Source of the DNA: a virus
Taxonomy: Duplodnaviria > Caudoviricetes
DNA length: 63,264 nt
Reading direction: 5' to 3' (one strand)
IMG/VR virus record: IMGVR_UViG_3300036770_000545
Span: 1-63,264 of that record
The translations under genes and the position numbers were made by a program. Of the stretch, positions 8,574 through 20,671 are shown one piece after another. The notes below the pieces were generated by a model. It had not been told where the DNA came from and searched no databases. It was given only the letters and a program-made list of their open reading frames with translations. Positions within the stretch are counted from its first letter, which is position 1; the number at the start of each line of letters is the position of its first letter.

Positions 8574-8588
8574 GAAAGAGAGGGGGGG

Positions 8589-8663: not shown

Positions 8664-8945
8664 TAAAAATTATATATCCCCCCGGGGGAAGTAGGGGACC
8701 CAAAAATACAAGGGGGTACTAATGCAATTTAGTGTCCGCCAAAACGTACCTTAAAAATGAGGGGGGTGGGGGTATAAATTTGTAATACAAAGTGCTGGGG
8801 AAACGCCGACGAGTGTGATCGGATGTGCAAATTAGTAAGTAGAGGGGTACCTGGACATTGCCGCGCTATCAGGGGGTGGGGGGTAGGTGGGGTCTGGCGG
8901 GCACCTAACACTGTTAGCCCCCCCTCATTATTGTTTCCCAAAGGG

Positions 8946-8975
8946 TTGCTTTTGCGTACCACATTTTGGTATAAT
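8946..8975 (+). promoter_or_regulatory. Early sigma70 promoter (extended -10)
   Basis: TTGCTT-18 nt-TATAAT with TGn; flanked by palindromes at 8905 and 9025. Confidence 0.7.
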
Positions 8976-9053
8976 AGGGGCAAGCGAGACGAAAACAGTT
9001 CGCTTCCTGGTTAGGCGGGTTTACCTAACAGTGTTAGCAAAGGAAAACACACG

Positions 9054-9560
9054 ATGGAAAACATCATCATTGACGGCTCCGAAGTTTCGATTGAATCCCT
9101 CCGCAAGGGTGTTGCGGAAGCGGTAAAGCGGGCATACGGCGCCGAGCGGAATTACGCCAAGGCACTCAATGCCATGTTCGCCTTCGACTGGTTCGAGTTC
9201 GAAGCGAGCGACACGAGCGACGACGCCAAACTGGTCAAAGTGGAAAAGACCCTGCTCTACGGGGAACTGAAAGCAGCAGACCACACGAACCCTTCAACAG
9301 TGTGGGCGAGGATTCGCAAGTATGGCAAAGAAGAGCGCCACGGCAAGGCAGAGGGCGCCGAGGGCGAGGGTGGCGAGGGCGAGGGCGAGGGTGCCGGTAA
9401 CACCCCCCGCGATGCAATCACCCGTAATGTCGAGGAACTGTTGAACCTGTACAAGTTCAACAAGCGGCAAGAGGGTCTGCCCGCCAAAGTGATGGACGCG
9501 CAGAAGCACATTGCCACCGCGTTGATTGCCCTGGGTGTTGACCTGAGTATGGTCAAGTAA
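9054..9560 (+). CDS. First early protein, unknown function
   Basis: 168 aa, AAGGA SD, own promoter and downstream hairpins, GE-repeat linker. Confidence 0.85.
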   Translation: MENIIIDGSEVSIESLRKGVAEAVKRAYGAERNYAKALNAMFAFDWFEFEASDTSDDAKLVKVEKTLLYGELKAADHTNPSTVWARIRKYGKEERHGKAEGAEGEGGEGEGEGAGNTPRDAITRNVEELLNLYKFNKRQEGLPAKVMDAQKHIATALIALGVDLSMVK

Positions 9561-9564
9561 CCCG

Positions 9565-9627
9565 AGCGGGGCGCAAGCCCCGCTTCTCTCCAGCCCCCCT
9601 AACAATGTTAGGCGGGTTTTTCTTTTG
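9565..9627 (+). terminator. GCAA-tetraloop hairpin followed by palindrome-based hairpin with U tract
   Basis: AGCGGGGC-GCAA-GCCCCGCT at 9565-9584; CCTAACAATGTTAGG followed by CGGGTTTTTCTTTT. Confidence 0.6.
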
Positions 9628-9743
9628 CCCGTCTGGTTCGCACCACGCGGGCTTTTTTGCGTCTGCTCTGACCGACCTAACAATGTTAGCCCGTGGCGAC
9701 CCCCATGGGCTTTTGTGTTTCCAGACGCTAGAGGTTTAGAGGG

Positions 9744-9930
9744 GTGGTGATAGTGACCAGAGCAGTGTAAGGACTAGGTCTAACAGTGTTAGGTTCTTGA
9801 CGCTCGACCTAAACTGGTTCCCAGTTTACCCCAAACTTTTCCGTTTGTCAAGCCTTTTTTGTGCCTATGTTTACTTGCGTGGTGATAGTGACCAGAGAGG
9901 TGTAAGGACAAAGGCTAACAGTGTTAGGTT
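9744..9930. repeat. Two 52-bp direct repeats (9744-9795, 9879-9930), each ending in a palindrome
   Basis: GTGGTGATAGTGACCAGAG..GTGTAAGGAC.....CTAACAGTGTTAGGTT, 47/52 identical. Confidence 0.9.
9823..9851 (-). promoter_or_regulatory. Leftward sigma70-like promoter between the direct repeats
   Basis: TTGACA-17 nt-TAAACT on - strand. Confidence 0.55.
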
Positions 9931-10273
9931 TTTTGGCTTTGTTAGCGTGTAATGTTAGCGTGCTAACATTTGTAAGTTGTTGATTTAGTTCAACAAAGTC
10001 AGAATGTTATAATGTTAGCGTGATTTTAGAGTATGGGTGAGAAAACGAGCCTCTCCGCAGATGCAGTTCAACGCACAGCCGCGAGACAAAAAAACCGACC
10101 CTCTCTCTCTTTCTCTAATAACATTATAACAATAGTCTACTTCTCCTCGCAAACCCGCATCACTGAGCCATTCACACTGTTAGAAACTTTTCTAACATCC
10201 ATCGCCATTTTTCTAACACCTAACATTGTTACCCCTGCGTTTTCCCTTCGGTCACGCCCTGCGACTAAAGTAC

Positions 10274-10302
10274 TTGACTTGTGTGGTACATTGTGATATA
10301 AT
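10274..10302 (+). promoter_or_regulatory. Early sigma70 promoter
   Basis: TTGACT-17 nt-TATAAT; spacer nearly identical to promoter at 12866. Confidence 0.85.
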
Positions 10303-10365
10303 GGGGTTGTAGTAAATGAGTAAAGAATTTCCGCTCGGGCTTCGGTCAAGCCCTAACAATGTTAG

Positions 10366-10602
10366 ATGGAGACGCCAATGAGTATGCAATTCACAACCCC
10401 TGACAATCAGTACCACATTACAAGCCACGGCAACGGATGGGCTTATGAGGTTCACTGCCAATCCACGGGATGTTCTTTGTGGTTCCAAGATGACGATGCG
10501 GCTAACTTGCAAACCGAAACCAACGACTTCACCAACACCGAAGTCTTGCGTTCTTACTTTGAGTGCCTGTGCTACGGCACGGCAGACACCGGCTTAGAGT
10601 GA
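10366..10602 (+). CDS. Early hypothetical protein
   Basis: ORF after promoter; start may be 10378. Confidence 0.6.
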   Translation: METPMSMQFTTPDNQYHITSHGNGWAYEVHCQSTGCSLWFQDDDAANLQTETNDFTNTEVLRSYFECLCYGTADTGLE

Positions 10603-10610
10603 GGCTACCC

Positions 10611-10877
10611 ATGACAACCAACCACGCCAACCTAACACTGTTAGGTCTAGCCGACAGAATCGACATCCACGAGTGCGCCAATGACTACTGCCAAGATGAG
10701 ATACCACCAGCCCGTTATGCACTCGGCTACCGCACCTGCCTGCAATGCGGAGACCGACAGGCAAAGCAAGAACGCAAACTGTGGTGCATCGCACCCATGC
10801 ACAAGAGTAACTATGTGCTGATAACAGACAAGGCAGACCTGCAAGGACTCAACAACAAAGGAGGGTTAGTGAGATGA
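10611..10877 (+). CDS. Early zinc-finger-like protein
   Basis: CxxxxC...CLQC, APMHKSNY. Confidence 0.7.
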   Translation: MTTNHANLTLLGLADRIDIHECANDYCQDEIPPARYALGYRTCLQCGDRQAKQERKLWCIAPMHKSNYVLITDKADLQGLNNKGGLVR

Positions 10878-11134
10878 AAGTGCAACAGGGAAAAAGAAGA
10901 AAACTTGTCAAGCGTCCCCAAACTTGGTTGTGGGCATACAAGCATTGCAACCGGAAAACAAAGCATTGGAATTGGCGGTTGGTTAGTGCCATGAGGGAAA
11001 TAGAACACAAGTCCTGCGTGCCGTTTGCTTTGTACAAGTGGAAGGCGTTTGGGTTCGATGGCAAAGAGCAACCCATGTGGACTATCGCTGACTACATGAA
11101 CGAGTGGTACGAGTACGCAGACCAATCAATCTAA
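10874..11134 (+). CDS. Early hypothetical protein
   Basis: ATGA overlap with upstream gene, GGAGG SD. Confidence 0.6.
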   Translation: MKVQQGKRRKLVKRPQTWLWAYKHCNRKTKHWNWRLVSAMREIEHKSCVPFALYKWKAFGFDGKEQPMWTIADYMNEWYEYADQSI

Positions 11135-11152
11135 CAATTTTAGGAGAGTGAG

Positions 11153-11302
11153 ATGAGTTACTTCAAGAAAAAAAGTGTTACCCGTGACGAGTTGATTAGG
11201 ATGCTTAACGATATGGAGATTGACAAAATCGAAGTCGAAGAATGTTACGGGGGTTCGTTGGAAATCTTTGTGTATGCAAAAGACGAGGAGGAAGTGAAAT
11301 GA
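11153..11302 (+). CDS. Small early hypothetical protein (49 aa)
   Basis: AGGAG SD, MSYFKKKSVTRDELIRMLND, ATGA overlap with next ORF. Confidence 0.55.
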   Translation: MSYFKKKSVTRDELIRMLNDMEIDKIEVEECYGGSLEIFVYAKDEEEVK

Positions 11303-11433
11303 ACTGGATTAAAGACTTACTGTGGGACAACAGTCTCAGCGTGCGTGACAACCTAGCAACATGGGCTCTCGGCATCATCGGGTTCACCCTGTTCTATGTC
11401 CTGTTGTTCCTTGTGCTGCTACTTGGAGAGTGA
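11299..11433 (+). CDS. Small early membrane protein
   Basis: MNWIKDLLWD with a C-terminal hydrophobic helix, GAGGAGG SD. Confidence 0.55.
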   Translation: MNWIKDLLWDNSLSVRDNLATWALGIIGFTLFYVLLFLVLLLGE

Positions 11434-11965
11434 GATGACGATGACCACTCATGCCTTTGTGCAAAAACTGCGTAAGCAGGGAGTCAGGTGCGGGGATGTG
11501 GTACGCCTACGCGGCAAGCCGCATTACATTCAGGGCGTAACCAACCAGTACATAACTCTGGTGTCGATGGACGAGCGCAAGATGTTTATAACTTTATGGG
11601 GGTGAGCATGGGCAAGCCTGCTTTCGAGGTCGAGTCTGTGCGCCAAGCGGTTGCGGGTGGGAAAACCAATATGTACGAGGCGAGAGTCATTGTGCGCCAC
11701 GGCAAGAAGGGCAGACCCAAGAAGGAGAAGTTCGTAGTTTTCGGGCAAGACGAGATGGCGGCATACCTACGGGCTACCGAAGTCATGAAAGAAAGGAATA
11801 GAGATGCACAAGAACAAACCGAGCAAGCACAAGCCCGTGCTTGTAAAGAAGCGCAACCCTGTGGTGGCGGCACTTGTGGCTAACCCAAAGCGCAACGCGG
11901 GTAAACACAAGAGCAACCGAGCAGCCGACCTAACAATGTTAGACACAACAGAGAAGGAGTAGACC

Positions 11966-12850
11966 ATGGGATTCTTCGTATCAAAATTTGATGCTCCGAG
12001 GCTCTATAACTATATGGATGCCGTGGCGCATGAGCAGGAAGTGAAACCCATACGGGGCAAGGCTGATTGCAAGCCACTGGGCAAACGGCGAAACACTCAT
12101 GTGACCATCCGCAAGGGAGCAGACGAGAGCATCGCGTGTCGGCTGTACCACACCGATGTCATCACTTACCACAAGGACGGGCGCATCGAGTTTAGGCTGG
12201 AGGGTTGGGCGAGTCAGTCCACGATGGTGTTCATACGCGAGGTGCTTGGGGTGGATGCGGTCATCCGCAACAGTATGGTGTGGGTGCAGTCGGCTATCCC
12301 TAACTTGGCAACAGTTGGGTGGTACGCCTTGCATTCCCACGGGGTCAACGAGTTCAGGCGCAATGGACAGGGCGACCTTGAGTTTCAGAACCACACAACA
12401 TTCACCAAGCATACGATTAACCGAGCAGGTGCTAACAATGTTAGGAAGATGTTCAAACCCTTCAAGAATTACTTGTCGGCAACGATGCGTGTGCGAGATG
12501 CAGGCTTCAGTATCCAAGAGTTCGGGGATGTGTTCGGTTGGGTCATGGACGGCAGGATGCCTGACTACCCCAGGTGCATGGACTTCAGGCGGGACTGCTT
12601 GGATGGTGTCGATGAGTTCATCGGGTTGGCGCTATCAGAAGATGCACAAGATAGGTACAAGGCAACGCTAATACTGGTCAGGTCGATGGGGCACCCATAC
12701 CGAGATAGTTGGGCGGTGAATGTACCACACATGCTACGCAGGCTGGATGACTTTATTCTGTACGCCCATCGGGAAGAGTGTTTCGATGAGGTCGATGTGC
12801 CACTGGGAGAGATTGCCCGTGACCCATACGAGAAGTTCTTTAGTTACTGA
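11966..12850 (+). CDS. Early hypothetical protein
   Basis: 294 aa, AAGGAG SD. Confidence 0.85.
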   Translation: MGFFVSKFDAPRLYNYMDAVAHEQEVKPIRGKADCKPLGKRRNTHVTIRKGADESIACRLYHTDVITYHKDGRIEFRLEGWASQSTMVFIREVLGVDAVIRNSMVWVQSAIPNLATVGWYALHSHGVNEFRRNGQGDLEFQNHTTFTKHTINRAGANNVRKMFKPFKNYLSATMRVRDAGFSIQEFGDVFGWVMDGRMPDYPRCMDFRRDCLDGVDEFIGLALSEDAQDRYKATLILVRSMGHPYRDSWAVNVPHMLRRLDDFILYAHREECFDEVDVPLGEIARDPYEKFFSY

Positions 12851-12865
12851 GCGTGACCGAATCGC

Positions 12866-12894
12866 TTGACTTGTGTGGTACAATGTAGTATAAT
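12866..12894 (+). promoter_or_regulatory. Early sigma70 promoter for AAA/VWA operon
   Basis: TTGACT-17 nt-TATAAT. Confidence 0.85.
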
Positions 12895-12959
12895 AAAAAG
12901 AAAAAAGTAGTAAGAACCCGCCTAACACTGTTAGGCAACAACCAAGGAAAGGAAGTCCA

Positions 12960-14027
12960 ATGAGCGTTATATCTTTTGGTAAGCAAGTATCTTTGAAGCA
13001 AGCCGCAAGCATCATCCTCGCAACCCCTGAGAATCGGTATCTGTTGCAGGGTGAACCTGGCATCGGTAAGTCGTCTCTACTTAAGACGCTATCCGCAAGC
13101 CTGCCCAATCACGAGGTCGCATACATTGATGTTCCCAACATGGACTTGGGCGACATCGCCATGCCCGTGATTAACCACGAGACTAAGACTACTGCCTACT
13201 ACCCTAACACTAGGTTCAAGGTTCACACCGGCAAGCCCGTCATAACAATGTTAGATGAGTTCACCAAAGGTGCAGAGCCAATCAAGAATATGCTTCACCC
13301 CTTGCTTGAGGTGGCAAACCCTCGGCTTGGTGACATCTCCGTTCACCCCGAGTCAATCGTTTTTCTCACGGGTAATCTGTCTACTGACGGAGTCGGAGAC
13401 AACCTAAAGGCACACAGCCGCAACCGCATCATCCCCCTGACTGTGCGCAAACCAGACGCAGACGAGTGGCTTGAGTGGGCGGTGAACAACAACATCGAGC
13501 CGGTCATCATGGCGTGGGTGCGTCAGTTCCCTCATGCCTTGGCTAGTTACACAGATGATGCGCAGGGTGACAACCCATACATCTACAACCCGAAGAAGGT
13601 GCAGACTGCCTTTGTTTCGCCTCGCTCACTGGAGAGAGCCTCTAACATTGTTAGGGTACGCGAGAAGATTGATGCCGATACCATGATAGCCGCAATGTCT
13701 GGAGCCTTGGGCGAAGCGGCAAGCCGAGACATTCAGGCTTATGTGGAGTATCAAGACCAGTTGCCCACATGGGAGAGCATCATCAAGAACCCCAAGACTG
13801 CTGATGTCCCTAACAGCGCAGGTGCTTGTGCCGTTCTTATCTTTGGCGCCATCGCTAAGATTGCCAAGGACACAATGACCCCGTTCATGAGTTACTTGGA
13901 GCGGTTCGAGCCTGAGTGGCAAGCCTGTTTCGCTATCAATGTGGCGAAGTCCCCGACCAAGCAGAGCATCGCGTTCAGTTCCTTGGCATTCGCTGACTGG
14001 GTTACGAAGAACGAGGACTTGCTATGA
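12960..14027 (+). CDS. MoxR/dynein-related AAA+ ATPase
   Basis: Walker A GEPGIGKS, Walker B MLDEF, sensor LTGN, SPRS motif; adjacent VWA gene. Confidence 0.88.
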   Translation: MSVISFGKQVSLKQAASIILATPENRYLLQGEPGIGKSSLLKTLSASLPNHEVAYIDVPNMDLGDIAMPVINHETKTTAYYPNTRFKVHTGKPVITMLDEFTKGAEPIKNMLHPLLEVANPRLGDISVHPESIVFLTGNLSTDGVGDNLKAHSRNRIIPLTVRKPDADEWLEWAVNNNIEPVIMAWVRQFPHALASYTDDAQGDNPYIYNPKKVQTAFVSPRSLERASNIVRVREKIDADTMIAAMSGALGEAASRDIQAYVEYQDQLPTWESIIKNPKTADVPNSAGACAVLIFGAIAKIAKDTMTPFMSYLERFEPEWQACFAINVAKSPTKQSIAFSSLAFADWVTKNEDLL

Positions 14028-14126
14028 GTTCGGAGAAACAAGTACTGGACAAAGCCCGCAAGTATTTACTTGCTAATGGATACGAGAGTAGTGACTTCTT
14101 TGTTACTAAAGTAGAGAGGACTAACA

Positions 14127-15347
14127 ATGTTAGATGCAGAGCGCAGGTTGAAGAAAATCAAAATCAGTTTGATGCGAAACCCCAAGTTCGCGTTGTGGTC
14201 GGGGATGCTCATGCTAGGCAAGACGGAGGTGGTCGATAACTTCCCGACTGCCTGCACCAACGGGCGGGATGAGAAGTATGGGCGCAAGTTCATCGAGGAG
14301 TTGGACGACAAAGAGTTGGCGTTCGTTGTCCTCCACGAGAACCTCCACAAAGCGTTCCGTCACTTGTTCATCTGGCGCAAGTTGTGGGAGGAGAACCCCA
14401 AATTGGCGAATGCGGCTTGCGACTATGTCATTAACCTGATGATTGTCGAGAGCGACCCCAACGAGAGCGTAGTTGCCATGCCCCGCAAGGAAGGGAAGGT
14501 CTATGGCTTGCTCGACCCACGCTTTGCCAAGATGAATGCGAAGCAAGTGTTCGACATTCTCAAGAAGGAGCAACAACAAGGCGGTGGCGGTGGTCAAGGT
14601 GATGGTCAAGGCGAGGGTCAAGGCGGTGCTGATGGTGGGTTCGATGACCACGACTGGGAGGGTGCGCAAGGTCTGTCCGATGAGGATAAGCAAGTACTGG
14701 AAAAGGAAGTAGACCAAGCACTCCGCCAAGGTCAAATCGCACACCAAAAGGTCAACGGCAAGGGTGCGGGTGGCATGGGGCGCGAGTTGGGTGACTTGCT
14801 TGAGCCGCAGGTGGACTGGCGCGAGGTGATGCGTGAGTTCGTCAAGTCTATCTGCAACGCCAAGGATGCAAGTTCATGGCGTAGAGTGAATCGCCGGTTC
14901 CTGTCGGGTGATGTCTATATGCCTACGCTAATCGGTGAAAGGGTTGGGCGCATCGCGGTTGGCATCGACACATCGGGTTCCATCGGTGGGCAGGAGTTGA
15001 ATCGGTTTCTCTCCGAGGTGAAGTCTATTGCCGAGGATGTTCATCCCGAGTTCATCGACTTGGTCTACTGGGATAGCAGTGTGGCGGCGCACGAAGAGTA
15101 TGACGAGTTGTCAGTACCTAACATTGTTAGTTCTACTAAGCCGGTAGGTGGAGGCGGCACTGACCCACGGGCAATGATGGCTTACTTGAAGGAGAAGAAC
15201 ATCACGCCGGAGTGCATTGTGATGCTTACGGATGGTTACATAGGGGAGTGGGGTAATGAATGGAATGCTCCGATTCTTTGGGCGATTTGCAATGGAGCAT
15301 CGGATGTCTATGCCCCATGCGGTAAGACTGTTCATATTAAGGACTAG
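14127..15347 (+). CDS. Metallopeptidase-like plus VWA domain protein (DUF2201-like)
   Basis: TACTNG, HENLH (HExxH), N.ACDYVIN, Gly-rich linker, MIDAS DTSGS...GGGT...LTDG. Confidence 0.88.
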   Translation: MLDAERRLKKIKISLMRNPKFALWSGMLMLGKTEVVDNFPTACTNGRDEKYGRKFIEELDDKELAFVVLHENLHKAFRHLFIWRKLWEENPKLANAACDYVINLMIVESDPNESVVAMPRKEGKVYGLLDPRFAKMNAKQVFDILKKEQQQGGGGGQGDGQGEGQGGADGGFDDHDWEGAQGLSDEDKQVLEKEVDQALRQGQIAHQKVNGKGAGGMGRELGDLLEPQVDWREVMREFVKSICNAKDASSWRRVNRRFLSGDVYMPTLIGERVGRIAVGIDTSGSIGGQELNRFLSEVKSIAEDVHPEFIDLVYWDSSVAAHEEYDELSVPNIVSSTKPVGGGGTDPRAMMAYLKEKNITPECIVMLTDGYIGEWGNEWNAPILWAICNGASDVYAPCGKTVHIKD

Positions 15348-15351
15348 GCTA

Positions 15352-15600
15352 ATGAAGAAAGCAATTGTCAGAGTGGGATACACCCAGTTCGTACTGGATA
15401 CGCCGAAAGCCCTAGCATTTTTAGAGTTGCTGGCCGAAGCAGAAATCTACGAAGAGAAGTGGAAGAAGAAGGAGGATGGCGGGACGACTCACCATGTCTA
15501 CCCGCAAGACACCAACGACAGCATTCGGCAGTTGCAGATTGTGCCGACTGCGTTCTACCACATGGCGAAGATGGCGGGGCGACCCGATAGGGAGAGTTGA
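15352..15600 (+). CDS. Early hypothetical protein
   Basis: 82 aa ORF directly after VWA gene. Confidence 0.65.
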   Translation: MKKAIVRVGYTQFVLDTPKALAFLELLAEAEIYEEKWKKKEDGGTTHHVYPQDTNDSIRQLQIVPTAFYHMAKMAGRPDRES

Positions 15601-15943
15601 TATGACTGACCAAGAAAAAATCGAATTGGCATTTGATTTACTAGCGGATGCAGAAGTTATGCATGAGTTTGATGACTGTCTGTGGGTGAAGGTTGACCGA
15701 GAGTTGTGGGAGGAGTTTCAAAAAGCGGGAGGTACAAAATGACTGAATTACTAGCGGTAAGCGTGACGGCAAACCTGTTTCTAATCTTCAGTTACATGAA
15801 GATGCGGTTTCATTGCCGAGTTGTATCGGAGTTGTTGAAAGGGATTGCTTGTGGCGAAGTCGAGCTGGTGGCTAACGAGCAAGGTAGTTTTGAAGTACGA
15901 GTAAACAAAACCTAACAATGTTAGTTGACGAAGGAGCGAACCC

Positions 15944-16801
15944 ATGAGTATTACATCTAGTGCAGTACAGGTAGAAATGAATATCTCTGTGTGGACTGCC
16001 AACAAGTTGGACAAGTCTGCAACCGAGAAGGTGGTAGCAGATAACTCTGCGGTGCAAAACGCCGCCCAAGTTCGTAAGAACCTGATGGCAGGCACGAGCC
16101 TACGGAAAGACATCTCTGACTATGCGGCGGGATGTCGCCTGTGGCACAACACCCGTACTCTGCCATGGGCAGACAAAGGGGCACGACTGTTGTCTACCAG
16201 TCTGTTCTTGGACTACAAGACGGAGGCAAACATTCGGCGGGACACCTTCAACAAGATGGTGGATAACTTCTGCACTAACTACCCCGCGCTGGTGCAGACA
16301 TCGCATAACTACCTTGGCACTCTGTTCAACCCCGAGGACTACCCGAGCGTTGACGAAGTGCGAAGCAAGTTCGGCTTCAGGCTAGTGTTTAGCCCTGTGC
16401 CTGAGTCGGGCGACTTTCGGTTGCAGGTAGCCGAGCAAGACTTACAAGACCTACGCCAGCAGTACGAGGAGAATTTTTCGAGCCGTCTCGCTGACGCTAT
16501 GCGTGAACCATGGGACAGACTCCACAAGTTGCTGATTGGCATGAGCGAGAAGTTGACGGATGTCGAGGGTGATGACGAGAGCAAGAAGCGTTACCACGAT
16601 ACCCTCATTACAAACGCGCAGACTCTGTGTTCCCTGCTGACGCACTTGAATGTGACGAAAGACCCCAAGTTGGAGCAGGCGCGGCGTGACCTTGAACTAA
16701 CAATGTTAGGTGCTGACATTGATGCAATCAAAGAGAGTCCCGAAGTGCGCAAGGGTATGAAGGACAAACTGGATGCAATCCTCAAGCAGTATGAATGGTA
16801 A
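15944..16801 (+). CDS. Early helical protein, DUF3150-like (tentative)
   Basis: 285 aa, AAGGAG SD; TLPW, DYPSVDEVRSKF motifs. Confidence 0.65.
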   Translation: MSITSSAVQVEMNISVWTANKLDKSATEKVVADNSAVQNAAQVRKNLMAGTSLRKDISDYAAGCRLWHNTRTLPWADKGARLLSTSLFLDYKTEANIRRDTFNKMVDNFCTNYPALVQTSHNYLGTLFNPEDYPSVDEVRSKFGFRLVFSPVPESGDFRLQVAEQDLQDLRQQYEENFSSRLADAMREPWDRLHKLLIGMSEKLTDVEGDDESKKRYHDTLITNAQTLCSLLTHLNVTKDPKLEQARRDLELTMLGADIDAIKESPEVRKGMKDKLDAILKQYEW

Positions 16802-16811
16802 GGAGAGAACA

Positions 16812-17705
16812 ATGATTGACGAACTTAAGTACAGCTACATCGAACTGACTCTGCCTAACATCGTAGCCCGATGGGAGAAAGGGGACAGCCTGAATGAGAA
16901 TAACCTTCCCACATTTGAGATTGACTCCGACCTCAAGCCTTTTGTGGAAGCCTTGGCTATGAAGTATCCACAATGGCGTTTTGTTTGTAGTAGTTATTGG
17001 AGGCATCGGCGGGGGGATGACGAACCAGTTCATGCGGCGCGGAGGTTCAATGTGTACAACGGGCGTGAAGTGTTGGGCGAGATAAGCACTGACTCGATGC
17101 GCAATGGGAGCGTGTACACAATCTACAACGAGCGTATCGAAAGGAGCAGGTCGCGTGGTCGTGTGACTAAGACCAAGGACTTGAACAAGGCGGTCAAGAT
17201 TGTCGGCAAGATGTTTGGGTCTAAGACGATAGAAGAAAGAATGCTTGGGGTTATGGAGGAGGGCGGTGCTATCGTTTCGCAAGTGTATCGTGACAGGTGG
17301 TACAAGTTTGATTCTACCTACTCAGACATCACTTCTAAGTTGGTTCCGTATGTCATTGCTAACTGGGATGTCATATCTGAAGAAGCCTTAAAGGAGAATG
17401 CAGACCCTAACATTGTTAGTTCGTTTACAAATATATACAACGAGCATCAAGCCATGAAAGGAATCCAAGAATGTCTAGCAAAAAGTGCAGGGGTTGCGGT
17501 GTTAATTCATGGCAAAGATTATGCCGTGACAAAAGTAAACGCAAGCGTATCGGACGAAACTACCCTCTACACAACCGAAACACTACCGCTCCATATTAAG
17601 TCGGCAATAGGTATGCTCAAGTTGTTGGAACCGAAAAACTTTATCGGTGGCGTTGGCGTTAAAATCTCCGATGAATCATTCTTTGTGGTCAAGGAGGAAG
17701 CATGA
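16812..17705 (+). CDS. Early hypothetical protein
   Basis: 297 aa, AAGGAG SD. Confidence 0.8.
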   Translation: MIDELKYSYIELTLPNIVARWEKGDSLNENNLPTFEIDSDLKPFVEALAMKYPQWRFVCSSYWRHRRGDDEPVHAARRFNVYNGREVLGEISTDSMRNGSVYTIYNERIERSRSRGRVTKTKDLNKAVKIVGKMFGSKTIEERMLGVMEEGGAIVSQVYRDRWYKFDSTYSDITSKLVPYVIANWDVISEEALKENADPNIVSSFTNIYNEHQAMKGIQECLAKSAGVAVLIHGKDYAVTKVNASVSDETTLYTTETLPLHIKSAIGMLKLLEPKNFIGGVGVKISDESFFVVKEEA

Positions 17706-17917
17706 GCAACGAGATGCCAACCAAGCGGGTACGGGGCAAAGGGAAGAACCCTGCTAAAGCCCATGTGAACCTACGACTGCCGGTAGAAGTGTTAGAGTTT
17801 TATAAAGAATTCCCCAATTACACGGGGAAGATGCGAGAAGTACTTGTTAACTACCAAAAGGAGCATGACCATGAAAAAGTCTCTAGCGATTCTTTGCGCA
17901 ATGATGATGAGCAGTAG
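17702..17917 (+). CDS. Ribbon-helix-helix DNA-binding protein (BrnA-antitoxin-like)
   Basis: RGKGKNPAKAHVNLRLPVEVLEFYK...YTGKMREVL resembles the BrnA/RHH pattern. Confidence 0.7.
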   Translation: MSNEMPTKRVRGKGKNPAKAHVNLRLPVEVLEFYKEFPNYTGKMREVLVNYQKEHDHEKVSSDSLRNDDEQ

Positions 17918-18014
17918 CGTTCTCGCCGCTGTTAAGTGCGAGCCAAGCCCACGCGGCGGCATGTGCTGTTGGGATACTAAAGTAGATGGCCCGTTCAGAC
18001 CTTTAGGTTGCTAA
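17871..18014 (+). CDS. Secreted Cys-rich micropeptide (47 aa; not in ORF track)
   Basis: AAGGAG 7 nt upstream; MKKSLAILCAMMMSSSVLA-AVKCEPSPRGGMCCWDTKVDGPFRPLGC. Confidence 0.65.
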   Translation: MKKSLAILCAMMMSSSVLAAVKCEPSPRGGMCCWDTKVDGPFRPLGC

Positions 18015-18051
18015 TAATGTAAGCACTGCCTAACATTGTTAGGTCGTTTCC

Positions 18052-18076
18052 AACCCGCCCAAGTGGCGGGTTTTTT
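18052..18076 (+). terminator. Rho-independent terminator ending the early operon
   Basis: AACCCGCC-caagt-GGCGGGTT-TTTT. Confidence 0.85.
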
Positions 18077-18090
18077 ATTATCTAAAAGGT

Positions 18091-18118
18091 TTGACAAAGT
18101 CCAAAGATGTGCTATCAT
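18091..18118 (+). promoter_or_regulatory. Middle promoter
   Basis: TTGACA-16 nt-TATCAT with TGn; near-identical to promoter at 28062. Confidence 0.75.
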
Positions 18119-18125
18119 TACGCAC

Positions 18126-18449
18126 ATGGCAAGCACCCCTGAGAAGAAGGTCAAAGACCAAGTAGTCAAAACGCTGAAGGCAAATAGCGTGTACTATTTT
18201 TTCCCTGCTACTTACGGCATGGGGCGGTCAGGTGTGCCAGACATCATCTGTTGCGTTGAGGGGCGCTTCCTTGCTATCGAGTGCAAGGCAGGCAAGAACA
18301 AGCCCACGGCGCTACAGGAGCGGGAGATGTCTGCGATTGTATCTGCTGGTGGGAGTGCAATAGTGGTTAACGAAGAGAACCTACATGAAGTAGGTCAGAT
18401 ACTACAACTACTCAAGGAATACGATGGACGACCCAATACTGACGATTAG
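18126..18449 (+). CDS. VRR-NUC domain nuclease
   Basis: E..VK, SGVPDII, FLAIECK, PTALQ motifs. Confidence 0.9.
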   Translation: MASTPEKKVKDQVVKTLKANSVYYFFPATYGMGRSGVPDIICCVEGRFLAIECKAGKNKPTALQEREMSAIVSAGGSAIVVNEENLHEVGQILQLLKEYDGRPNTDD

Positions 18450-18801
18450 AAACAAAGGCGTTCAGATTCTACTGAACCGCATGGAGTCTAACCCCGAAGA
18501 GTTTACGGCTAGACCTAACAGAACATTGATGGCAGAAAACAGGTGGGAGTGGGTTATTGATAAGGTGATAAACCGAATCGACAACAACCACAAGAACACC
18601 GACAACTACCGAATGCAATTACGCTTTCTCACTAACGAGGAAGTGGAAGCCCTGTACGACAAGTATATGTCTATCCAAGGTGAGGCGTTTACAAAAGCCA
18701 TCATGCAAGAACTACTTGAAGAGGCTAACGAAAGAGAGCAAGAGGCTAACATTGTTAGGTCTGCTCCGATGATGGTCGCCAATTCTCCTCGCGTCCGATG
18801 A
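18424..18801 (+). CDS. Hypothetical protein
   Basis: 125 aa, AAGGA SD. Confidence 0.7.
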   Translation: MDDPILTIRNKGVQILLNRMESNPEEFTARPNRTLMAENRWEWVIDKVINRIDNNHKNTDNYRMQLRFLTNEEVEALYDKYMSIQGEAFTKAIMQELLEEANEREQEANIVRSAPMMVANSPRVR

Positions 18802-18847
18802 TAGTGACCAAAAAGAGTGGTACTCAACAACAAGGCGGTGCAAGCAC

Positions 18848-20671
18848 ATGCAAATTTTAACGATAGATTTTGAAACTTTTTACGACCGGGACTTTTCCCT
18901 GTCAAAAATGACTACGGAGGAGTACATCCGTTCAGAGCAGTTTGAAACGATTGGTGTGGCTGTCAAGGTTGGTGACGGAAAGACAGAGTGGTTTAGTGGT
19001 ACTCACCAAGACACACTGGAATTCTTGTGGAAATTTGACTGGGAGAACTCAATTGCGCTTGCACACAATGCTATGTTCGATATGGCAATCCTCAATTGGC
19101 GCTTTGGCATCTCTCCTAAAAAGATTGCTGATACTTTATCTATGGCCCGGGCGATACACGGAACCGAAGTCGGAGGAAGCCTTGCCGCACTGGCGTCACA
19201 TTATCAACTCGGAACAAAAGGAACGGAGGTAGTCAATGCGCTGGGCAAAAGACGAATTGATTTTTCTCCTGAAGATATGTCCCGGTACGGTGATTACTGT
19301 ATTAACGATGTCAATCTTACTTACGATCTTTTTGGTTGTCTTGTTGCTGACTTTCCCGTAAGCGAACTTAATCTGATTGACCTTACGATACGGATGTTCA
19401 CCGAACCCGTACTGGAACTCGACAAAAACATTTTGAAAGGGCACTTGCGTGAAGTGCAAGACTCCAAGGCTCGGCTCATGGAGGGTATTGACGAGAACCG
19501 CGATGTGCTGATGAGCAACCCACAGTTTGCTGAACTGTTACGCAAGCAGGGCGTTGAACCCCCCATCAAGATTAGTCCCCTTACAAACAAAGAAACCTAC
19601 GCTTTCTCCAAGACTGACGAGGAGTTCAAGGCGTTACTAGAGCATGAAAACGAGGCGGTGCAAGCCCTTGTTGCGGCTCGGTTGGGAGTCAAGTCAACCA
19701 TCGAAGAGACACGCACCCAACGATTTATTGAGATTGCGGATCGGGGTTTACTACCCATCCCCCTACGCTACTATGCGGCACACACGGGGCGTTGGGGTGG
19801 TGATGACAAGGTCAACATGCAGAACCTTCCTCGGACCTCTCCGCTTAAACGTGCCATCCTCGCACCGAAGAACTACAAGATAATTGACTCCGACTCCTCA
19901 CAAATTGAAGCCCGTACGCTGGCATGGCTGGCAGAGCAGAACGACTTGGTCGATGCTTTCGACAAAGGTGAGGACGTTTACAGGATTATGGCTTCTGCCA
20001 TCTACGGCAAAGACATAGATCAGATTAACAAAGATGAGCGGTTTGTAGGCAAGACAACAATTCTCGGTGCGGGATACGGCATGGGGCCTGCTAAGTTTCG
20101 TACTCAGTTAAAAGTCTTTGGCGTTGACCTTTCGGAAGATGAGTGCAAACGCATCATCTCGGTGTATCGAGAGACTTACCCCCGCATCCCACTGTTGTGG
20201 AAAGAAGCAAGCAATGCGTTGCTAGCCATAGCAAACGAGCAGACCGCCCCACTGGGAAGAGCAGGAGTGCTTGCTGTGGAGGGGAGCAAAGGTATTAAGT
20301 TGCCTAACGGGCTATACGTTAAGTACCCAAACCTGCGGCGTTGGGTCAATGACCAAGGTAAAGAAGAACTGGTGTACGACACAAAGCGTGGCAAAGCGGT
20401 GATTCCCAACCGCATCTACGGGGGCAAAGTAATTGAGAACGTGTGTCAAGCCCTTGCGCGTATCGCCATCGGTGAGCAGATGTTAATGATCTCTAAAAAG
20501 TACCGCGTGGTCATGACGGTACATGACGCTATCGCTTGCATAGTCCCCGAACATGAAGGAGAAACGGGGCAAGAGTTTGTAGAAATGTGCATGCGTATTC
20601 GCCCCAAGTGGGCACCTGACCTTCCGCTGAACTGCGAGTCTGGCGTAGGTCGTTCTTATGGAGACTGTTGA
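18848..20671 (+). CDS. DNA polymerase family A with 3'-5' exonuclease
   Basis: Exo IDFET, HNAMFD, YCIND; HTGRW; motif A DSSQIEAR; motif B RFVGKTTILGAGYG; motif C VHDA. Confidence 0.95.
   Translation: MQILTIDFETFYDRDFSLSKMTTEEYIRSEQFETIGVAVKVGDGKTEWFSGTHQDTLEFLWKFDWENSIALAHNAMFDMAILNWRFGISPKKIADTLSMARAIHGTEVGGSLAALASHYQLGTKGTEVVNALGKRRIDFSPEDMSRYGDYCINDVNLTYDLFGCLVADFPVSELNLIDLTIRMFTEPVLELDKNILKGHLREVQDSKARLMEGIDENRDVLMSNPQFAELLRKQGVEPPIKISPLTNKETYAFSKTDEEFKALLEHENEAVQALVAARLGVKSTIEETRTQRFIEIADRGLLPIPLRYYAAHTGRWGGDDKVNMQNLPRTSPLKRAILAPKNYKIIDSDSSQIEARTLAWLAEQNDLVDAFDKGEDVYRIMASAIYGKDIDQINKDERFVGKTTILGAGYGMGPAKFRTQLKVFGVDLSEDECKRIISVYRETYPRIPLLWKEASNALLAIANEQTAPLGRAGVLAVEGSKGIKLPNGLYVKYPNLRRWVNDQGKEELVYDTKRGKAVIPNRIYGGKVIENVCQALARIAIGEQMLMISKKYRVVMTVHDAIACIVPEHEGETGQEFVEMCMRIRPKWAPDLPLNCESGVGRSYGDC

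What the first reader, a model, noticed from the sequence alone, without database searches (positions are those of the whole stretch)
8905..18758. A 10-kb early domain marked by 19 copies of the palindrome CTAACANTGTTAG, including inside genes
Seen: 19 perfect and 3 one-mismatch copies between 8.9 and 18.8 kb, and no perfect copy noticed in the other ~53 kb. With 12 fixed bases, chance expectation is about 0.004 per genome. Copies are densest next to the arm-divergence region, then recur every 0.3-1 kb. Many lie inside CDSs in different reading frames (LTLLG, ANNVR, SNIVR, PNIVS, LTMLG), one overlaps the VWA start codon and one forms a terminator stem, so selection acts on the DNA, not the protein. 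Known analogues: mycobacteriophage L5 stoperators (13-bp intragenic, but asymmetric) and matS (GTGACRNYGTCAC, a 13-bp palindrome with the same ACANTGT-type core bound by MatP). Inference: a dimeric protein coats the whole early or first-injected segment to silence, condense, protect or ratchet it in. Candidate binders are the RHH protein (17702), the first early protein (9054), the HTH proteins, or an ejected virion protein.
Basis: partly seen in the sequence, partly recalled or inferred. Interest (0 to 1): 0.92.

Follow-up and report, generated by a model that had tools for sequence, protein, structure and literature searches.

The report
Palindrome array marking phage early domain
A 63-kb uncultured tailed phage and many of its relatives mark their first ten kilobases of early genes with repeated copies of one short palindrome, and in many of them the same stretch has also lost the short DNA words that restriction enzymes cut, which suggests a protein-bound genome segment that meets the host before the rest.

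Summary
There are 19 perfect and 3 one-mismatch copies of CTAACANTGTTAG, all within 8905-18758, against 0.01 expected by chance.

The array is a family trait. 29 of 80 related loci carry 5-21 copies of the same word, and in three complete relatives it stays within a 9-11 kb early block. More distant relatives carry their own palindrome at the same places.

Selection acts on the DNA. Intragenic copies sit at conserved codon positions with frozen synonymous sites. Mismatch tolerance is mirror-symmetric, there are no G-U-type variants, and complementarity runs to the centre. These points favour double-stranded DNA read by a symmetric dimer over an RNA hairpin.

A new result: the array has the same limits as a restriction-word desert (ACGT 0, GATC 0, AGCT 2, GGCC 2; 21-39 expected each). 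This holds in 4 of 11 complete genomes and in 16 of 33 loci. It is the signature of phage T5's first-step-transfer DNA and of leading regions in T7-type phages.

Best reading, at confidence 0.4: an operator and roadblock array that controls the leading early block. The reader protein is not identified. The first early protein is the leading candidate, and the RHH protein is disfavoured.

Earlier notes of this scan report the same kind of array and similar deserts on other DNA.

The parts
8905..8917 (.). Palindrome copy 1. It lies in the divergent intergenic region, about 72 bp upstream of the inferred start of the first early promoter and next to a G-rich tract.
9025..9037 (.). Copy 2, in the leader of the first early gene, centred about +48 from the inferred start. 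It ends 16 nt before the ATG at 9054.
9599..9611 (.). Copy 3. With its flanking C and G it forms a terminator-like stem followed by a T-run.
9677..9689 (.). Copy 4, abutting the terminator-like hairpin at 9688-9711.
9780..9792 (.). Copy 5, at the end of the first 52-bp direct repeat, beside the leftward promoter-like site 9851-9823.
9915..9927 (.). Copy 6, at the end of the second direct repeat, 135 bp from copy 5.
10220..10232 (.). One-mismatch copy (last base C), 42 nt upstream of the -35 hexamer of the promoter-like site at 10274.
10353..10365 (.). Copy 7, in the leader after the promoter-like site 10274-10302, centred about +50.
10632..10644 (.). Copy 8, inside ORF 10611-10877 (peptide LTLLG).
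11131..11143 (.). One-mismatch copy. It supplies the TAA stop of ORF 10874-11134 and overlaps the Shine-Dalgarno sequence of ORF 11153.
11930..11942 (.). Copy 9, 23 nt before the start of ORF 11966-12850.
12432..12444 (.). Copy 10, inside ORF 11966-12850 (ANNVR). The position is shared by 22 of 32 distinct homologues.
12922..12934 (.). Copy 11, in the leader after the promoter-like site 12866-12894, centred about +27. It ends 25 nt before the AAA ATPase gene.
13242..13254 (.). One-mismatch copy (first base A) inside the AAA gene. The position is shared by 22 of 82 homologues.
13642..13654 (.). Copy 12, inside the AAA gene (SNIVR). The position is shared by 35 of 82 homologues, and all 13 bases are identical in those 35.
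14121..14133 (.). Copy 13. Its central ATG is the start codon of the DUF2201 metallopeptidase/VWA gene.
15118..15130 (.). Copy 14, inside the DUF2201 gene (PNIVS). The position is shared by 43 of 90 homologues.
15912..15924 (.). Copy 15. It supplies the TAA stop of ORF 15706-15915 and ends 19 nt before ORF 15944.
16697..16709 (.). Copy 16, inside ORF 15944-16801 (LTMLG). The position is shared by 42 of 86 homologues.
17407..17419 (.). Copy 17, inside ORF 16773-17705 (PNIVS).
18030..18042 (.). Copy 18. It lies 9 nt before the terminator-like hairpin 18052-18072 and about 89 bp upstream of the start inferred for promoter-like site 18091-18118.
18746..18758 (.). Copy 19, the last. It lies inside ORF 18424-18801 (ANIVR), 90 nt before the DNA polymerase A gene.
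8818..19143 (.). Restriction-word desert. ACGT, GATC, AGCT and GGCC together occur about once per 97 bp in the genome. In this stretch they occur only at 15432, 15863, 16833 and 17988. The last such word before it is GATC at 8817 and the first after it is GGCC at 19144.
8872..8892 (+). G-rich tract just left of the first palindrome. A like tract precedes the first site in relatives of other motif classes (G009, G010, G011).
8946..8975 (+). Inferred first early promoter, TTGCTT-18-TATAAT with TGn before the -10. I read it by eye; the tool's scan does not list it.
   Evidence: sequence; inference
9054..9560 (+). First early gene (168 aa). It forms its own small unit bracketed by palindromes. It is a fast-evolving all-helical family present at this position in 11 of 11 complete genomes. 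It is the leading candidate reader, but this is not shown.
9590..10365 (.). Non-coding hub. It holds five full copies, one near copy and a cluster of solo half-sites (TGTTAG at 9940, 9953, 10013, 10178; CTAACA at 9963, 10192, 10213), as well as direct repeats and promoter-like sites on both strands.
10274..10302 (+). Promoter-like site, TTGACT-17-TATAAT (11 of 12 consensus positions).
12866..12894 (+). Promoter-like site, TTGACT-17-TATAAT (11 of 12 consensus positions).
18091..18118 (+). Promoter-like site, TTGACA-16-TATCAT (11 of 12 consensus positions).
17702..17917 (+).

Best explanation
The 13-bp palindromes are docking sites on double-stranded DNA for a two-fold symmetric (dimeric) sequence-specific protein. 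Together they form an operator and roadblock array that controls the whole leading early block of the phage. The block runs from the first early promoter to just before the DNA polymerase gene. It is the part of the genome that faces the host's restriction enzymes unprotected, most simply because it enters first and stays alone in the cell for a while, as in T5 first-step transfer or the slowly internalised leading region of T7-type phages. Some sites sit in pairs around early promoters, at about -72 and +48 at the first one. Others sit about 40-55 bp after other promoters, in nearly every gap between early genes, and inside long genes, so that no stretch over 1 kb is free of a site. Once the protein is made, it would clamp promoters and block elongating host RNA polymerase across the block. 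This would shut the pre-early and early genes off, and would also shut off the leading DNA of a later-arriving phage of the same specificity. Competition between related phages would then explain why each lineage has rewritten all its sites to a new word. What is shown: the array, its confinement to the block, DNA-level selection, mirror symmetry, lineage-specific words at conserved places, and shared limits with the restriction-word desert. What is inferred: that a protein binds, that binding represses, and that the block enters first. The phage's first early protein (9054-9560) is the leading candidate.
For: 1. The array is real and confined: 19 perfect copies in 8905-18758 and 0 in the other 53 kb.
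2. It is a family trait. 29 of 80 loci found through the DUF2201 protein carry 5-21 perfect copies. In complete relatives all copies lie in one block: G001 has 16 copies in 8.9 of 60.5 kb, G002 has 15 in 10.2 of 66.7 kb, and G003 has 12 in 11.2 of 67.0 kb.
3. More distant relatives carry another palindrome in the same block, for example GTGAC-2-GTCAC, TTAAC-4-GTTAA, GTTAGTG-3-CACTAAC, TTCATAT-1-ATATGAA and TTCCCAC-1-GTGGGAA. The places are kept across classes: a site lies within 80 nt upstream of the AAA gene in 10 of 11 complete genomes, of the DUF2201 gene in 8 of 11, and of the 11966-type gene in 6 of 8.
4. Selection is on the DNA. At three intragenic sites, all 13 bases are identical in the 35, 42 or 43 homologues that carry them (at the DUF2201 site the two end bases are 79% and 95% identical), while flanking third positions are 30-60% identical. 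Other relatives keep SNIV or LTM peptides with different codons and no palindrome.
5. The reading looks like double-stranded DNA and a dimer. Of 127 distinct one-mismatch sites, 111 differ at the two outermost positions, and in mirror fashion (C1>A 50, G13>T 44). G-U-type changes are almost absent (C1>T 0, A>G 1). The centre base is A or T in 576 of 603 perfect sites. Complementarity runs up to spacers of 0, 1 or 2 bases in most classes, which a hairpin loop cannot use.
6. Placement relative to promoters. 11 of 19 strong sigma-70-like sites in the early blocks of 11 genomes have a palindrome centred at +27 to +58, and 4 of 19 have one at -62 to -99.
7. Spacing is more even than chance. For the 15 window sites from 10353 on, CV is 0.33 (0 of 20000 random placements as low) and the largest gap is 997 bp (P=7.5e-4). 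For G000-G003, CV is 0.50-0.60 with P 0.003-0.02.
8. Shared limits with a restriction-word desert. In the window, ACGT is 0 (28 expected), GATC 0 (31), AGCT 2 (39) and GGCC 2 (21). Among all 256 four-letter words, only these four fall to 0-2. The limits lie within 88 bp on the left and about 390 bp on the right. The same holds in G002, G003 and G005, each with its own set of words. 16 of 33 loci with at least 8 sites show at least one four-letter palindrome depleted at p<1e-4, with limits 81-248 bp before the first and 9-1388 bp after the last palindrome.
9. Published precedent that only the leading segment is exposed. For T5 and BF23, Type I and II systems act only on sites in the first-step-transfer region (PMC10644984, passages read; bioRxiv 10.1101/866236, passages read). 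For Autographiviridae, motifs matter only in the leading injected region (PMC12455610, abstract read).
10. Candidate reader. A gene of about 170 aa at the first early position occurs in 11 of 11 complete genomes, diverges fast, and is bracketed by sites. For two copies of it, the model supports binding but does not show it: score 0.59, best of 3 controls 0.00. That mark was reached by 20 of 30 proteins solved as pairs of one chain and by 1 of 23 solved as single chains. These counts hold only roughly, because my own alignment was used. The runs agree in at least 87% of contacts, and the partner's pLDDT is at least 75.
Against: 1. No reader has been found. The RHH strand varies among same-word phages. 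The conserved HTH at 29440-29676 has the same helix in all motif classes. The exposed helix of the first early protein (W-x-x-[VI]-[RK]) is not invariant among same-word phages, and two subfamilies that share the word are only 15-25% identical. Its model has no fold match (best E 2.8 in PDB, 0.28 in BFVD). No early-block family shows a drop in identity across the CTAACA-1, ATAACA-1 and CTAACA-2 class boundaries.
2. Some motif classes have a strand-biased spacer (centre C 24 against G 1 in GTTAGTG-3-CACTAAC; GA 12 against TC 0 in TAAACA-2-TGTTTA). This could mean a strand-specific reading, although duplicated intergenic cassettes may explain it.
3. The four strongest plus-strand terminator-like hairpins of the block all lie within 24 nt of a site. 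That fits antitermination as well as repression.
4. Even spacing is not required by ordinary operator logic.
5. No integrase, ParB or repressor family was found in the ORFs scanned, so classical prophage immunity is unlikely.
6. 7 of 11 complete genomes show no restriction-word desert, so the desert is not universal.
7. Promoter-like sites in the window are no more frequent than in shuffles (11 against 10.0).
8. First entry of the block is inferred and not observed.
Confidence: 0.4

Rival explanations
1. The sites are DNA-entry handles. A dimeric protein that is already in the cell at infection, either delivered from the virion or of host origin, binds each site as the leading DNA emerges. It ratchets, anchors or condenses that DNA. 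The end of the array sets how far step one of genome delivery goes, and the rest of the genome follows only after early proteins have acted.
For: The array and the restriction-word desert share both limits in the window, G002, G003 and G005. Spacing is even, with no gap over about 1 kb in the window. The right limit falls about 300 bp inside the polymerase gene in the window and not at a visible unit boundary. The first site lies beside a conserved G-rich tract at the left limit. The virion module is of podovirus type, with two SU10-adaptor homologues and very large proteins of 2140 and 1106 aa, one carrying an LPD39 domain.
Against: In distant relatives nearly all sites sit just before ribosome-binding sites or just after promoters, which points to gene expression. 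Block length and site number vary widely (4 sites in 2.2 kb in G011, 6-7 sites in 4-5 kb in G009 and G010). 7 of 11 complete genomes have sites but no desert. No pre-existing reader is known. The genome ends were not located.
Confidence: 0.2
2. The element acts as a hairpin in the early transcripts, or in the non-template strand of the transcription bubble. A processivity or antitermination factor would be re-loaded there, as with lambda N at nut or RfaH at ops, so that polymerase reads through the many terminators of the block.
For: 11 of 19 strong promoter-like sites have a site at +27 to +58. The four strongest plus-strand terminator-like hairpins of the window's block lie within 24 nt of a site, and like pairs occur in G006, G007 and G008. 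The first gene is a separate unit with a site in its leader, followed by three terminator-like hairpins. Spacers are strand-biased in some classes. In G007 the Shine-Dalgarno sequence sits in the spacer, and in Rhizobium phage RHph_TM3_14A it sits in the 3' arm.
Against: Mismatch tolerance is mirror-symmetric and G-U-type variants are almost absent. Complementarity is kept right up to spacers of 0-2 bases, which cannot pair in a hairpin. The 5-bp A/U-rich stem with a 3-base loop would be weak (inference). The first site lies upstream of the inferred first promoter in several lineages. The distance from site to start codon runs from -7 to 25 nt or more in the window, so there is no fixed translational geometry. 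No Rfam family reaches its threshold.
Confidence: 0.12
3. The reader is a host protein, such as a nucleoid-organising or global DNA-binding protein of the unknown host. The phage recruits or titrates it on its leading DNA. Different words in different lineages would then reflect different hosts.
For: The word is strictly conserved across phages whose small DNA-binding candidates all vary. The related half-sites CTAACA, ATAACA, TTAAC and TAAACA look like orthologous specificities. By recall, T5's injection-stop region carries host DnaA boxes; the preprint 10.1101/866236 describes 8 DnaA boxes (abstract and passages read).
Against: Same-word phages avoid different restriction words, so they probably infect different strains or species. 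Switches of word and of spacing (1 to 2 bases) occur between phages no more diverged than same-word phages are from each other. The host is unknown.
Confidence: 0.15
4. The palindromes are borders of mobile or recombining gene cassettes, like the promoter/stem-loop cassettes of T4-type phages, or they are a selfish short repeat. In either case they would not be protein-docking sites with a regulatory role.
For: Near-identical intergenic cassettes (palindrome plus ribosome-binding site) recur before different genes in G006, G009 and G010. Small early genes differ greatly between relatives.
Against: Intragenic copies at conserved codon positions in core genes cannot be cassette borders. All sites of a lineage change word together while keeping their places. 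A 13-bp unit has no room for mobility functions (inference).
Confidence: 0.05

Closest known systems
Operator and 'stoperator' arrays of Cluster A mycobacteriophages (L5 gp71-type repressor). Details are recalled; the Cluster O paper PMC4351075, whose passages I read, describes them as asymmetric and oriented with transcription.
   Same: Both have many copies of one 13-bp word, in short intergenic gaps and within transcription units. The word differs between related lineages. The proposed action is to block elongating polymerase and silence a whole block of genes.
   Different: Here the word is a perfect palindrome with no orientation. It is confined to a 10-kb leading block and is not genome-wide. 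No repressor homologue, integrase or parABS was found in the ORFs scanned, and the phage looks lytic.
17-bp palindromic repeat TGTTCGGNNNCCGAACA of Cluster O mycobacteriophages (PMC4351075, abstract and passages read)
   Same: Both show dyad symmetry, tens of copies, about one third within coding regions, and phages that are not evidently temperate. The authors predict a dimeric DNA-binding protein, and the function is unknown.
   Different: Those repeats lie throughout the genome and are merely denser towards one end. No restriction-word desert or lineage-specific rewriting is described in the passages I read. The phages and hosts are unrelated.
First-step-transfer (pre-early) DNA of T5/BF23, and the leading injected region of Autographiviridae (PMC10644984 passages; bioRxiv 10.1101/866236 passages; PMC12455610 abstract)
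   Same: Both involve a leading segment of roughly 8-10 kb that carries the earliest genes and is the only part where restriction sites matter. The window's block is purged of four restriction-type words, while the rest of the genome carries 114-211 of each.
   Different: T5's segment is part of a long terminal repeat, and its repeats and palindromes cluster at an injection-stop region with DnaA boxes. Here one word is spread evenly over the whole block. Contig depths show no doubling (weak evidence). Two-step entry has not been observed for this family.
matS/MatP of enterobacteria (sequence and facts recalled, not from a call)
   Same: Both are 13-bp palindromes with one free central base, present in many copies that define a chromosome domain.
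   Different: The half-sites differ (GTGAC against CTAACA). MatP is a host protein and the host here is unknown. Site density here is about 2 per kb, against roughly 1 per 35 kb for matS. The phage's RHH protein does not behave like a conserved reader.
gal operon operators OE and OI with GalR looping (positions recalled)
   Same: In both, two identical operators flank a promoter without covering it. Here they sit at about -72 and +48 at the first early promoter, and at -62 and +40 at a G006 promoter.
   Different: Only a minority of the sites are paired in this way. Looping has not been tested.

Membership tests
Cluster A stoperator system | Many dispersed copies of one 13-bp site, including inside transcription units | tested here: met
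   There are 22 sites, of which 8 are fully intragenic.
Cluster A stoperator system | The site is asymmetric and oriented with the direction of transcription | tested here: not met
   The word is a perfect palindrome. The centre base is A 346 and T 230 on the coding strand, and mismatches are mirror-symmetric.
Cluster A stoperator system | Sites spread over the whole genome | tested here: not met
   All copies lie in a block of 9-11 kb in the window, G001, G002 and G003.
Cluster A stoperator system | Temperate phage with an immunity repressor and an integrase or parABS | tested here: not met
   No such Pfam family was found in the ORFs scanned. Not every small ORF was scanned.
T5-type first-step-transfer or leading region | Restriction words absent from the leading segment but common elsewhere in the genome | tested here: met
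   In block against rest: ACGT 0/154, GATC 0/170, AGCT 2/211, GGCC 2/114. The same pattern occurs in G002, G003 and G005, and in 16 of 33 loci.
T5-type first-step-transfer or leading region | The segment lies at the physical genome end that enters first, and entry pauses there | not testable with these tools
   Only assembled contigs of public runs were available, and no molecule ends could be seen.
T5-type first-step-transfer or leading region | The segment is part of a long terminal direct repeat | tested here: inconclusive
   Contigs laid on 6000-21000 show no doubling of depth over the block, and one contig crosses the right limit (15928-19810). Contig depth is a poor measure.
matS/MatP | Site sequence GTGACRNYGTCAC (recalled) | tested here: not met
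   The word here is CTAACANTGTTAG. Only the format is shared.
matS/MatP | Read by the host protein MatP | not testable with these tools
   The host is unknown, and the bacterial genomes scanned show no arrays.
RNA hairpin operators (lambda nut boxB, coat-protein operators) | Pairing matters, so G-U changes are tolerated and loop bases need not be complementary | tested here: not met
   G-U-type changes number 0-1 of 127 variants. Complementarity is kept up to spacers of 0-2 bases in most classes.
parS/ParB centromere arrays | A ParB-family protein is encoded with the sites | tested here: not met
   No ParB-like family was found in the ORFs scanned against Pfam.
Cluster O-type palindromic repeats | Tens of copies of a dyad-symmetric word, partly intragenic, in a phage that is not evidently temperate | tested here: met
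   The comparison rests on passages of PMC4351075. Membership is by description only, since no reader is known for either system.

The most novel reading that the evidence does not exclude
The palindrome array is the cis-acting half of a staged genome-delivery and exclusion system in a large uncultured podovirus family. A dimeric phage protein, most plausibly the first early protein, binds a site at least once per kilobase along the leading 10 kb. This defines the only part of the genome that is ever naked in a defence-competent cell. The same binding stops RNA-polymerase-driven entry and expression of later-arriving phages of the same 'code'. That would explain why every lineage has rewritten all its sites, and presumably its reader, to a private word.
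Probability: 0.15. Interest if true: 0.9.

Novelty: new variant of a known kind. Interest (0 to 1): 0.72.

Why it matters
If the reading holds, it gives a sequence signature of two parts: a private palindrome array and a restriction-word desert with the same limits. This signature would mark the leading, first-exposed genome segment in phages that have never been grown.

It would show that T5-like or T7-like staged exposure is common in an unrelated, widespread family. It would also offer a natural series of operator and reader specificities for studying how a protein and tens of its sites change together.

There are practical uses. The signature predicts where restriction sites and CRISPR targets are effective against such phages. 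It also points to the early block (AAA ATPase, metallopeptidase-VWA and neighbouring genes) as the place to look for anti-defence functions. One cultured relative, Rhizobium phage RHph_TM3_14A, carries a comparable array and could be used for experiments.

Tried and rejected
Reader candidates.
- RHH protein (17702-17917): its beta-strand differs among 49 distinct homologues from same-word phages, so I rejected it as the likely reader.
- HTH at 29440-29676: its recognition helix is identical in all motif classes, so I rejected it.
- HTH-DUF3310 protein (21019-21453): 24-77% identical among same-word loci, with no class signal. It stays open but is unsupported.
- Small winged-helix proteins at 24435 and 24957: found in only 0-2 of 80 loci, so they are too poorly conserved.
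- First early protein: the AlphaFold2 model has mean pLDDT 79.8 but no significant fold match in PDB (best E 2.8) or BFVD (best E 0.28). The Atlas neighbours are unnamed viral clusters, and the nearest named one is DUF3102 at 0.82, which is only a lead.
- PDB sequence searches with the 15944 and 16773 proteins gave nothing useful.
- A test of identity across motif-class boundaries in 12 early families showed no family with a drop of more than about 6 points.

Host.
- Megablast of the block against named phages found nothing.
- By protein search, the nearest named phages are Rhizobium phage RHph_TM3_14A (38% in the polymerase) and Pseudomonas phage KPP25 (36%).
- RHph_TM3_14A carries (G)TTACC-6-GGTAA(C) 20 times in 42 kb but has no restriction-word desert. 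KPP25 has no array.

Genome ends.
- Only assembled contigs of public runs were on hand.
- Laid on 6000-21000, they showed no places where molecules begin or end and no doubling of depth over the block. Breaks occur at many strain-variant points. This says nothing firm about the termini.

RNA families. No match reached a gathering score; the best was 22.7 bits against a threshold of 50.

Literature.
- There were 0 papers for 'RHph_TM3_14A'.
- 'stoperator' plus 'palindromic' gave 6 papers, of which I read passages of PMC4351075.
- 'KPP25' papers were seen as a listing only, and none of the titles concerns repeats.
- I found no paper that describes this array.

Other rejected ideas.
- Chance or base composition: the shuffles rule it out, and only the four palindromic words fall to 0-2 among all 256 four-letter words.
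- RNA-processing sites: 8 conserved intragenic copies would cut coding RNA.
- Promoters for a phage RNA polymerase: no polymerase gene was found, and strong sigma-70-like sites are present.

Full report
**Observation.** The window is a complete 63264-base virus record. CTAACANTGTTAG occurs 19 times perfectly and 3 times with one mismatch, and every copy lies between 8905 and 18758. Dinucleotide-preserving shuffles give 0.01 perfect copies, and the reversed word gives none.

The gene map shows two divergent arms. A minus-strand arm holds the terminase and virion genes, at 8573 down to 289 and 63137 down to 32822. A plus-strand arm runs from 9054 to 32742.

The palindromes fill only the first 10 kb of the plus arm. 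That stretch holds small early genes, an AAA_5 ATPase (12960-14027), a DUF2201 metallopeptidase/VWA protein (14127-15347), conserved unknown genes at 11966, 15944 and 16773, an RHH-like protein and a VRR-NUC nuclease. The array stops 90 nt before the family A DNA polymerase gene (18848).

The virion module has two SU10-adaptor homologues, an M15 peptidase and a holin. No integrase, ParB or repressor family was found in the ORFs scanned, so the phage looks like a lytic podovirus.

**Placement in the window.**
- 14 of the 22 sites are not fully inside an ORF, although only 17.4% of positions qualify (P=1.8e-6). The other 8 are intragenic.
- Sites end 9-25 nt before six start codons. One contains the start codon of the DUF2201 gene, and two supply the TAA stop of the gene before them.
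- Two intragenic frames are used. The third is closed, because the word carries TAA and TAG in that frame.
- From 10353 onward the spacing is far more even than chance: CV 0.33, reached by none of 20000 random placements, and a largest gap of 997 bp (P=7.5e-4).
- The three 11-of-12 sigma-70-like sites (10274, 12866, 18091) have a palindrome at about +50, at +27, and at -89.
- The first early promoter is my own reading of the sequence (TTGCTT-18-TATAAT with TGn). It is flanked by sites at about -72 and +48.
- The four strongest plus-strand terminator-like hairpins of the block each lie within 24 nt of a site.
- A non-coding hub at 9590-10365 holds five full copies, one near copy and a cluster of solo half-sites. 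Overall, solo half-sites are about 3.6 times denser in the block than outside it.

**A family trait.**
- A search with the DUF2201 protein returned 80 related viral loci. 29 of them carry 5-21 perfect copies of the same word, 2 carry one copy and 49 carry none.
- In complete relatives every copy lies in one block. G001 has 16 copies in 8.9 of 60.5 kb, G002 has 15 in 10.2 of 66.7 kb, and G003 has 12 in 11.2 of 67.0 kb.
- Loci without the word are not empty. Each carries its own palindrome in several copies. These include ATAACA-1-TGTTAT, CTAACA-2-TGTTAG, TAAACA-2-TGTTTA, TTAAC-4-GTTAA, GTGAC-2-GTCAC, GTTAGTG-3-CACTAAC, TTCCCAC-1-GTGGGAA, TTCATAT-1-ATATGAA, TACGCA-type, TAGGGA-2-TCCCTA and GTAGTC-4-GACTAC.
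- In ten complete genomes fetched in full, these words again lie only in the early block.
- In those more distant genomes nearly every copy sits between a stop codon and the next ribosome-binding site, or about 40-55 nt after a strong promoter-like site. One more copy sits beside a G-rich tract upstream of the first early promoter.
- The places are kept while the word changes. A site lies within 80 nt upstream of the AAA gene in 10 of 11 complete genomes, of the DUF2201 gene in 8 of 11, and of the 11966-type gene in 6 of 8. None precedes the polymerase gene (0 of 11).
- Over all 11 genomes, 11 of 19 strong promoter-like sites have a palindrome centred at +27 to +58, 4 of 19 have one at -62 to -99, and 4 have none within 220 bp.

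**Selection on the DNA.** Codon alignments of the core genes show intragenic copies at fixed positions. In the AAA gene, 35 of 82 and 22 of 82 distinct homologues carry them. The figures are 43 of 90 for the DUF2201 gene, 42 of 86 for the 15944 gene and 22 of 32 for the 11966 gene.

At the three sites I examined, the carriers are identical at all 13 bases in the AAA and 15944 genes, synonymous positions included. In the DUF2201 gene they are identical at all but the two end bases. Flanking third positions are only 30-60% identical. Other relatives encode the same or similar peptides (SNIVK, LTMVG) with other codons and no palindrome. The protein therefore does not dictate the word.

**DNA duplex or RNA hairpin.** I collected 603 distinct perfect and 127 distinct one-mismatch sites from the window and from oriented loci with at least three perfect copies. 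One-mismatch sites were sought only within 1.5 kb of perfect ones.
- 111 of the 127 mismatches fall on the two outermost positions and mirror each other (C1>A 50, G13>T 44).
- Changes that would keep a G-U pair are nearly absent (C1>T 0, A>G 1).
- The centre base is A or T in 576 of 603 perfect sites. The coding-strand A:T ratio of 1.5 is close to the local A excess.
- In most motif classes complementarity runs up to a spacer of 0, 1 or 2 bases. A hairpin cannot use such pairing, but a two-fold symmetric protein on duplex DNA can.

Some results point the other way. Some classes have a strand-biased spacer, and many sites adjoin terminators. However, near-identical intergenic cassettes recur within genomes, so spacer orientation is not an independent observation. 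I put duplex reading by a dimer at about three in four.

**The restriction-word desert.** I tested this and found it to be broader.

In the window's block, ACGT occurs 0 times (28 expected from the rest of the genome), GATC 0 (31), AGCT 2 (39) and GGCC 2 (21). Among all 256 four-letter words, only these four palindromes fall to 0-2.

Pooled, these four words occur about once per 97 bp genome-wide. They stop at 8817, which is 88 bp before the first palindrome. They resume at 19144, which is about 390 bp after the last palindrome. Four exceptions lie between.

G002, G003 and G005 show the same pattern with their own word sets, for example GTAC 0 against 42-44 expected. Their left limits lie 75-86 bp before the first palindrome (in G002 one more word lies just inside the block), and their right limits 340-700 bp after the last one. 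G001 and G006-G011 show no such desert.

Among 33 loci with at least 8 sites and at least 4 kb of flank, 16 have at least one four-letter palindrome depleted in the block at p<1e-4. Some of these loci are near-duplicates of one another.

A desert confined to one segment means that only this segment is exposed to restriction. Exactly this is documented for the first-step-transfer DNA of T5 and BF23 (PMC10644984 and bioRxiv 10.1101/866236, passages read) and for the leading injected region of Autographiviridae (PMC12455610, abstract read). I therefore infer, without having observed it, that the palindrome block is the leading, first-exposed part of the genome.

I could not identify it.
- The RHH protein's DNA-facing strand varies among same-word phages.
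- The conserved HTH before the primase-helicase gene has one and the same recognition helix in all classes.
- No early family shows an identity drop across class boundaries.
- The first early gene encodes a protein of about 170 aa in 11 of 11 complete genomes. The protein diverges fast, and some loci have two copies of the gene.
- Its gene is bracketed by sites, like an autoregulated regulator.
- Its model is all-helical with a disordered linker (pLDDT 79.8) and has no significant fold match.
- For two copies of it, the model supports binding but does not show it. The score is 0.59 and the best of 3 controls is 0.00. That mark was reached by 20 of 30 proteins solved as pairs of one chain and by 1 of 23 solved as single chains. 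These counts hold only roughly, because my own alignment was used. The runs agree in at least 87% of contacts, and the partner's pLDDT is at least 75.
- Its exposed helix after the invariant Trp84 is not invariant among same-word phages, so the case for it is positional and weak.
- A host reader is not excluded. The bacterial genome scan showed only single chance matches.

**Mechanism.** The best-supported account is an operator and roadblock array on duplex DNA that governs the leading early block as a unit. Paired sites clamp promoters, and further sites in leaders, between cistrons and inside long genes stop host polymerase. The result would be shut-off of the earliest genes and possibly exclusion of later-arriving kin. 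Exclusion would supply the selective pressure needed to rewrite tens of sites together.

The main rivals are as follows. The sites could be handles for drawing in or holding the leading DNA. They could be re-loading sites for an antitermination factor, read as a hairpin. Or they could recruit a host protein. Each is given above with the result that would decide it.

**Comparison with known systems.** The array works most like the stoperators of Cluster A mycobacteriophages, but it fails three of their defining features: asymmetry with orientation, genome-wide spread and a temperate setting. Descriptively it is closest to the unexplained 17-bp palindromes of Cluster O mycobacteriophages (PMC4351075). 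The block itself matches the restriction signature of T5's first-step-transfer DNA.

Earlier notes of this scan report the same kind of array with the first early protein proposed as reader (e1-5939792, e1-6142020), and restriction-free early regions in other phages (e1-5743685, e1-5786494).

I class the finding as a new variant of a known kind.

Noticed in passing
window 9590-10365: A non-coding hub of about 770 bp. It holds five full palindromes, one near copy and clustered solo half-sites (three tandem TGTTAGCGTG units, and three CTAACA preceded by T-runs). It also holds two direct repeats 135 bp apart that flank a leftward promoter-like site (9851-9823).
   Followed up: partly
window 21819-22142: A 107-aa protein with a Rap1a immunity-protein domain (PF18602, E=1.9e-18) and a hydrophobic N-terminus. 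This family protects against type VI secretion effectors and is unexpected among phage early-middle genes.
   Followed up: no
window 8872-8892; also G009, G010 and G011 next to their first site: A G-rich tract (GGGGGTGGGGGGT-like) lies 12-25 nt to the left of the first palindrome in several motif classes, at the left limit of the restriction-word desert. It might mark the physical genome end or a packaging site.
   Followed up: partly
window 11131-11134, 15913-15915, 14127-14129: The word carries TAA and TAG in one frame and can carry ATG at its centre. It supplies two stop codons and one start codon of neighbouring genes. Most motifs of other lineages also contain stop triplets.
   Followed up: yes
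L200 (Rhizobium phage RHph_TM3_14A, MN988472.1 11630-53531): This cultured syntenic relative carries (G)TTACC-6-GGTAA(C) 20 times in 42 kb, spread over its whole plus arm. The copies often overlap the Shine-Dalgarno sequence, and there is no restriction-word desert. It is a possible experimental model.
   Followed up: partly
loci L010, L017, L090, L113, L119, L134, L154, L165: These relatives encode two paralogues of the first early protein. Several of them also have the highest site counts (20-25) and prefer the extended word CCTAACANTGTTAGG.
   Followed up: no
window 8905-18758 against the rest: TTAA (15 against 42.8 expected) and CCGG (9 against 27.9 expected) are also partly depleted in the block. 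CAGC and GCTG are strongly depleted on the plus strand, which may be a strand-composition effect or a further restriction word.
   Followed up: no
window 56749-57417 and 58051-58776: Two SU10-adaptor-like proteins (PF24175) point to a podovirus tail of the phiEco32/SU10 type. The very large proteins at 32822-39244 (2140 aa, with an LPD39 domain) and 41691-45011 (1106 aa) may be ejection proteins.
   Followed up: no
G011 (handle): Another viral record has exactly the same length as the window (63264 bases). It is a different genome (47% identity in the DUF2201 protein, and its own palindrome ATCTCAC-4-GTGAGAT), so the equal length is a coincidence.
   Followed up: yes
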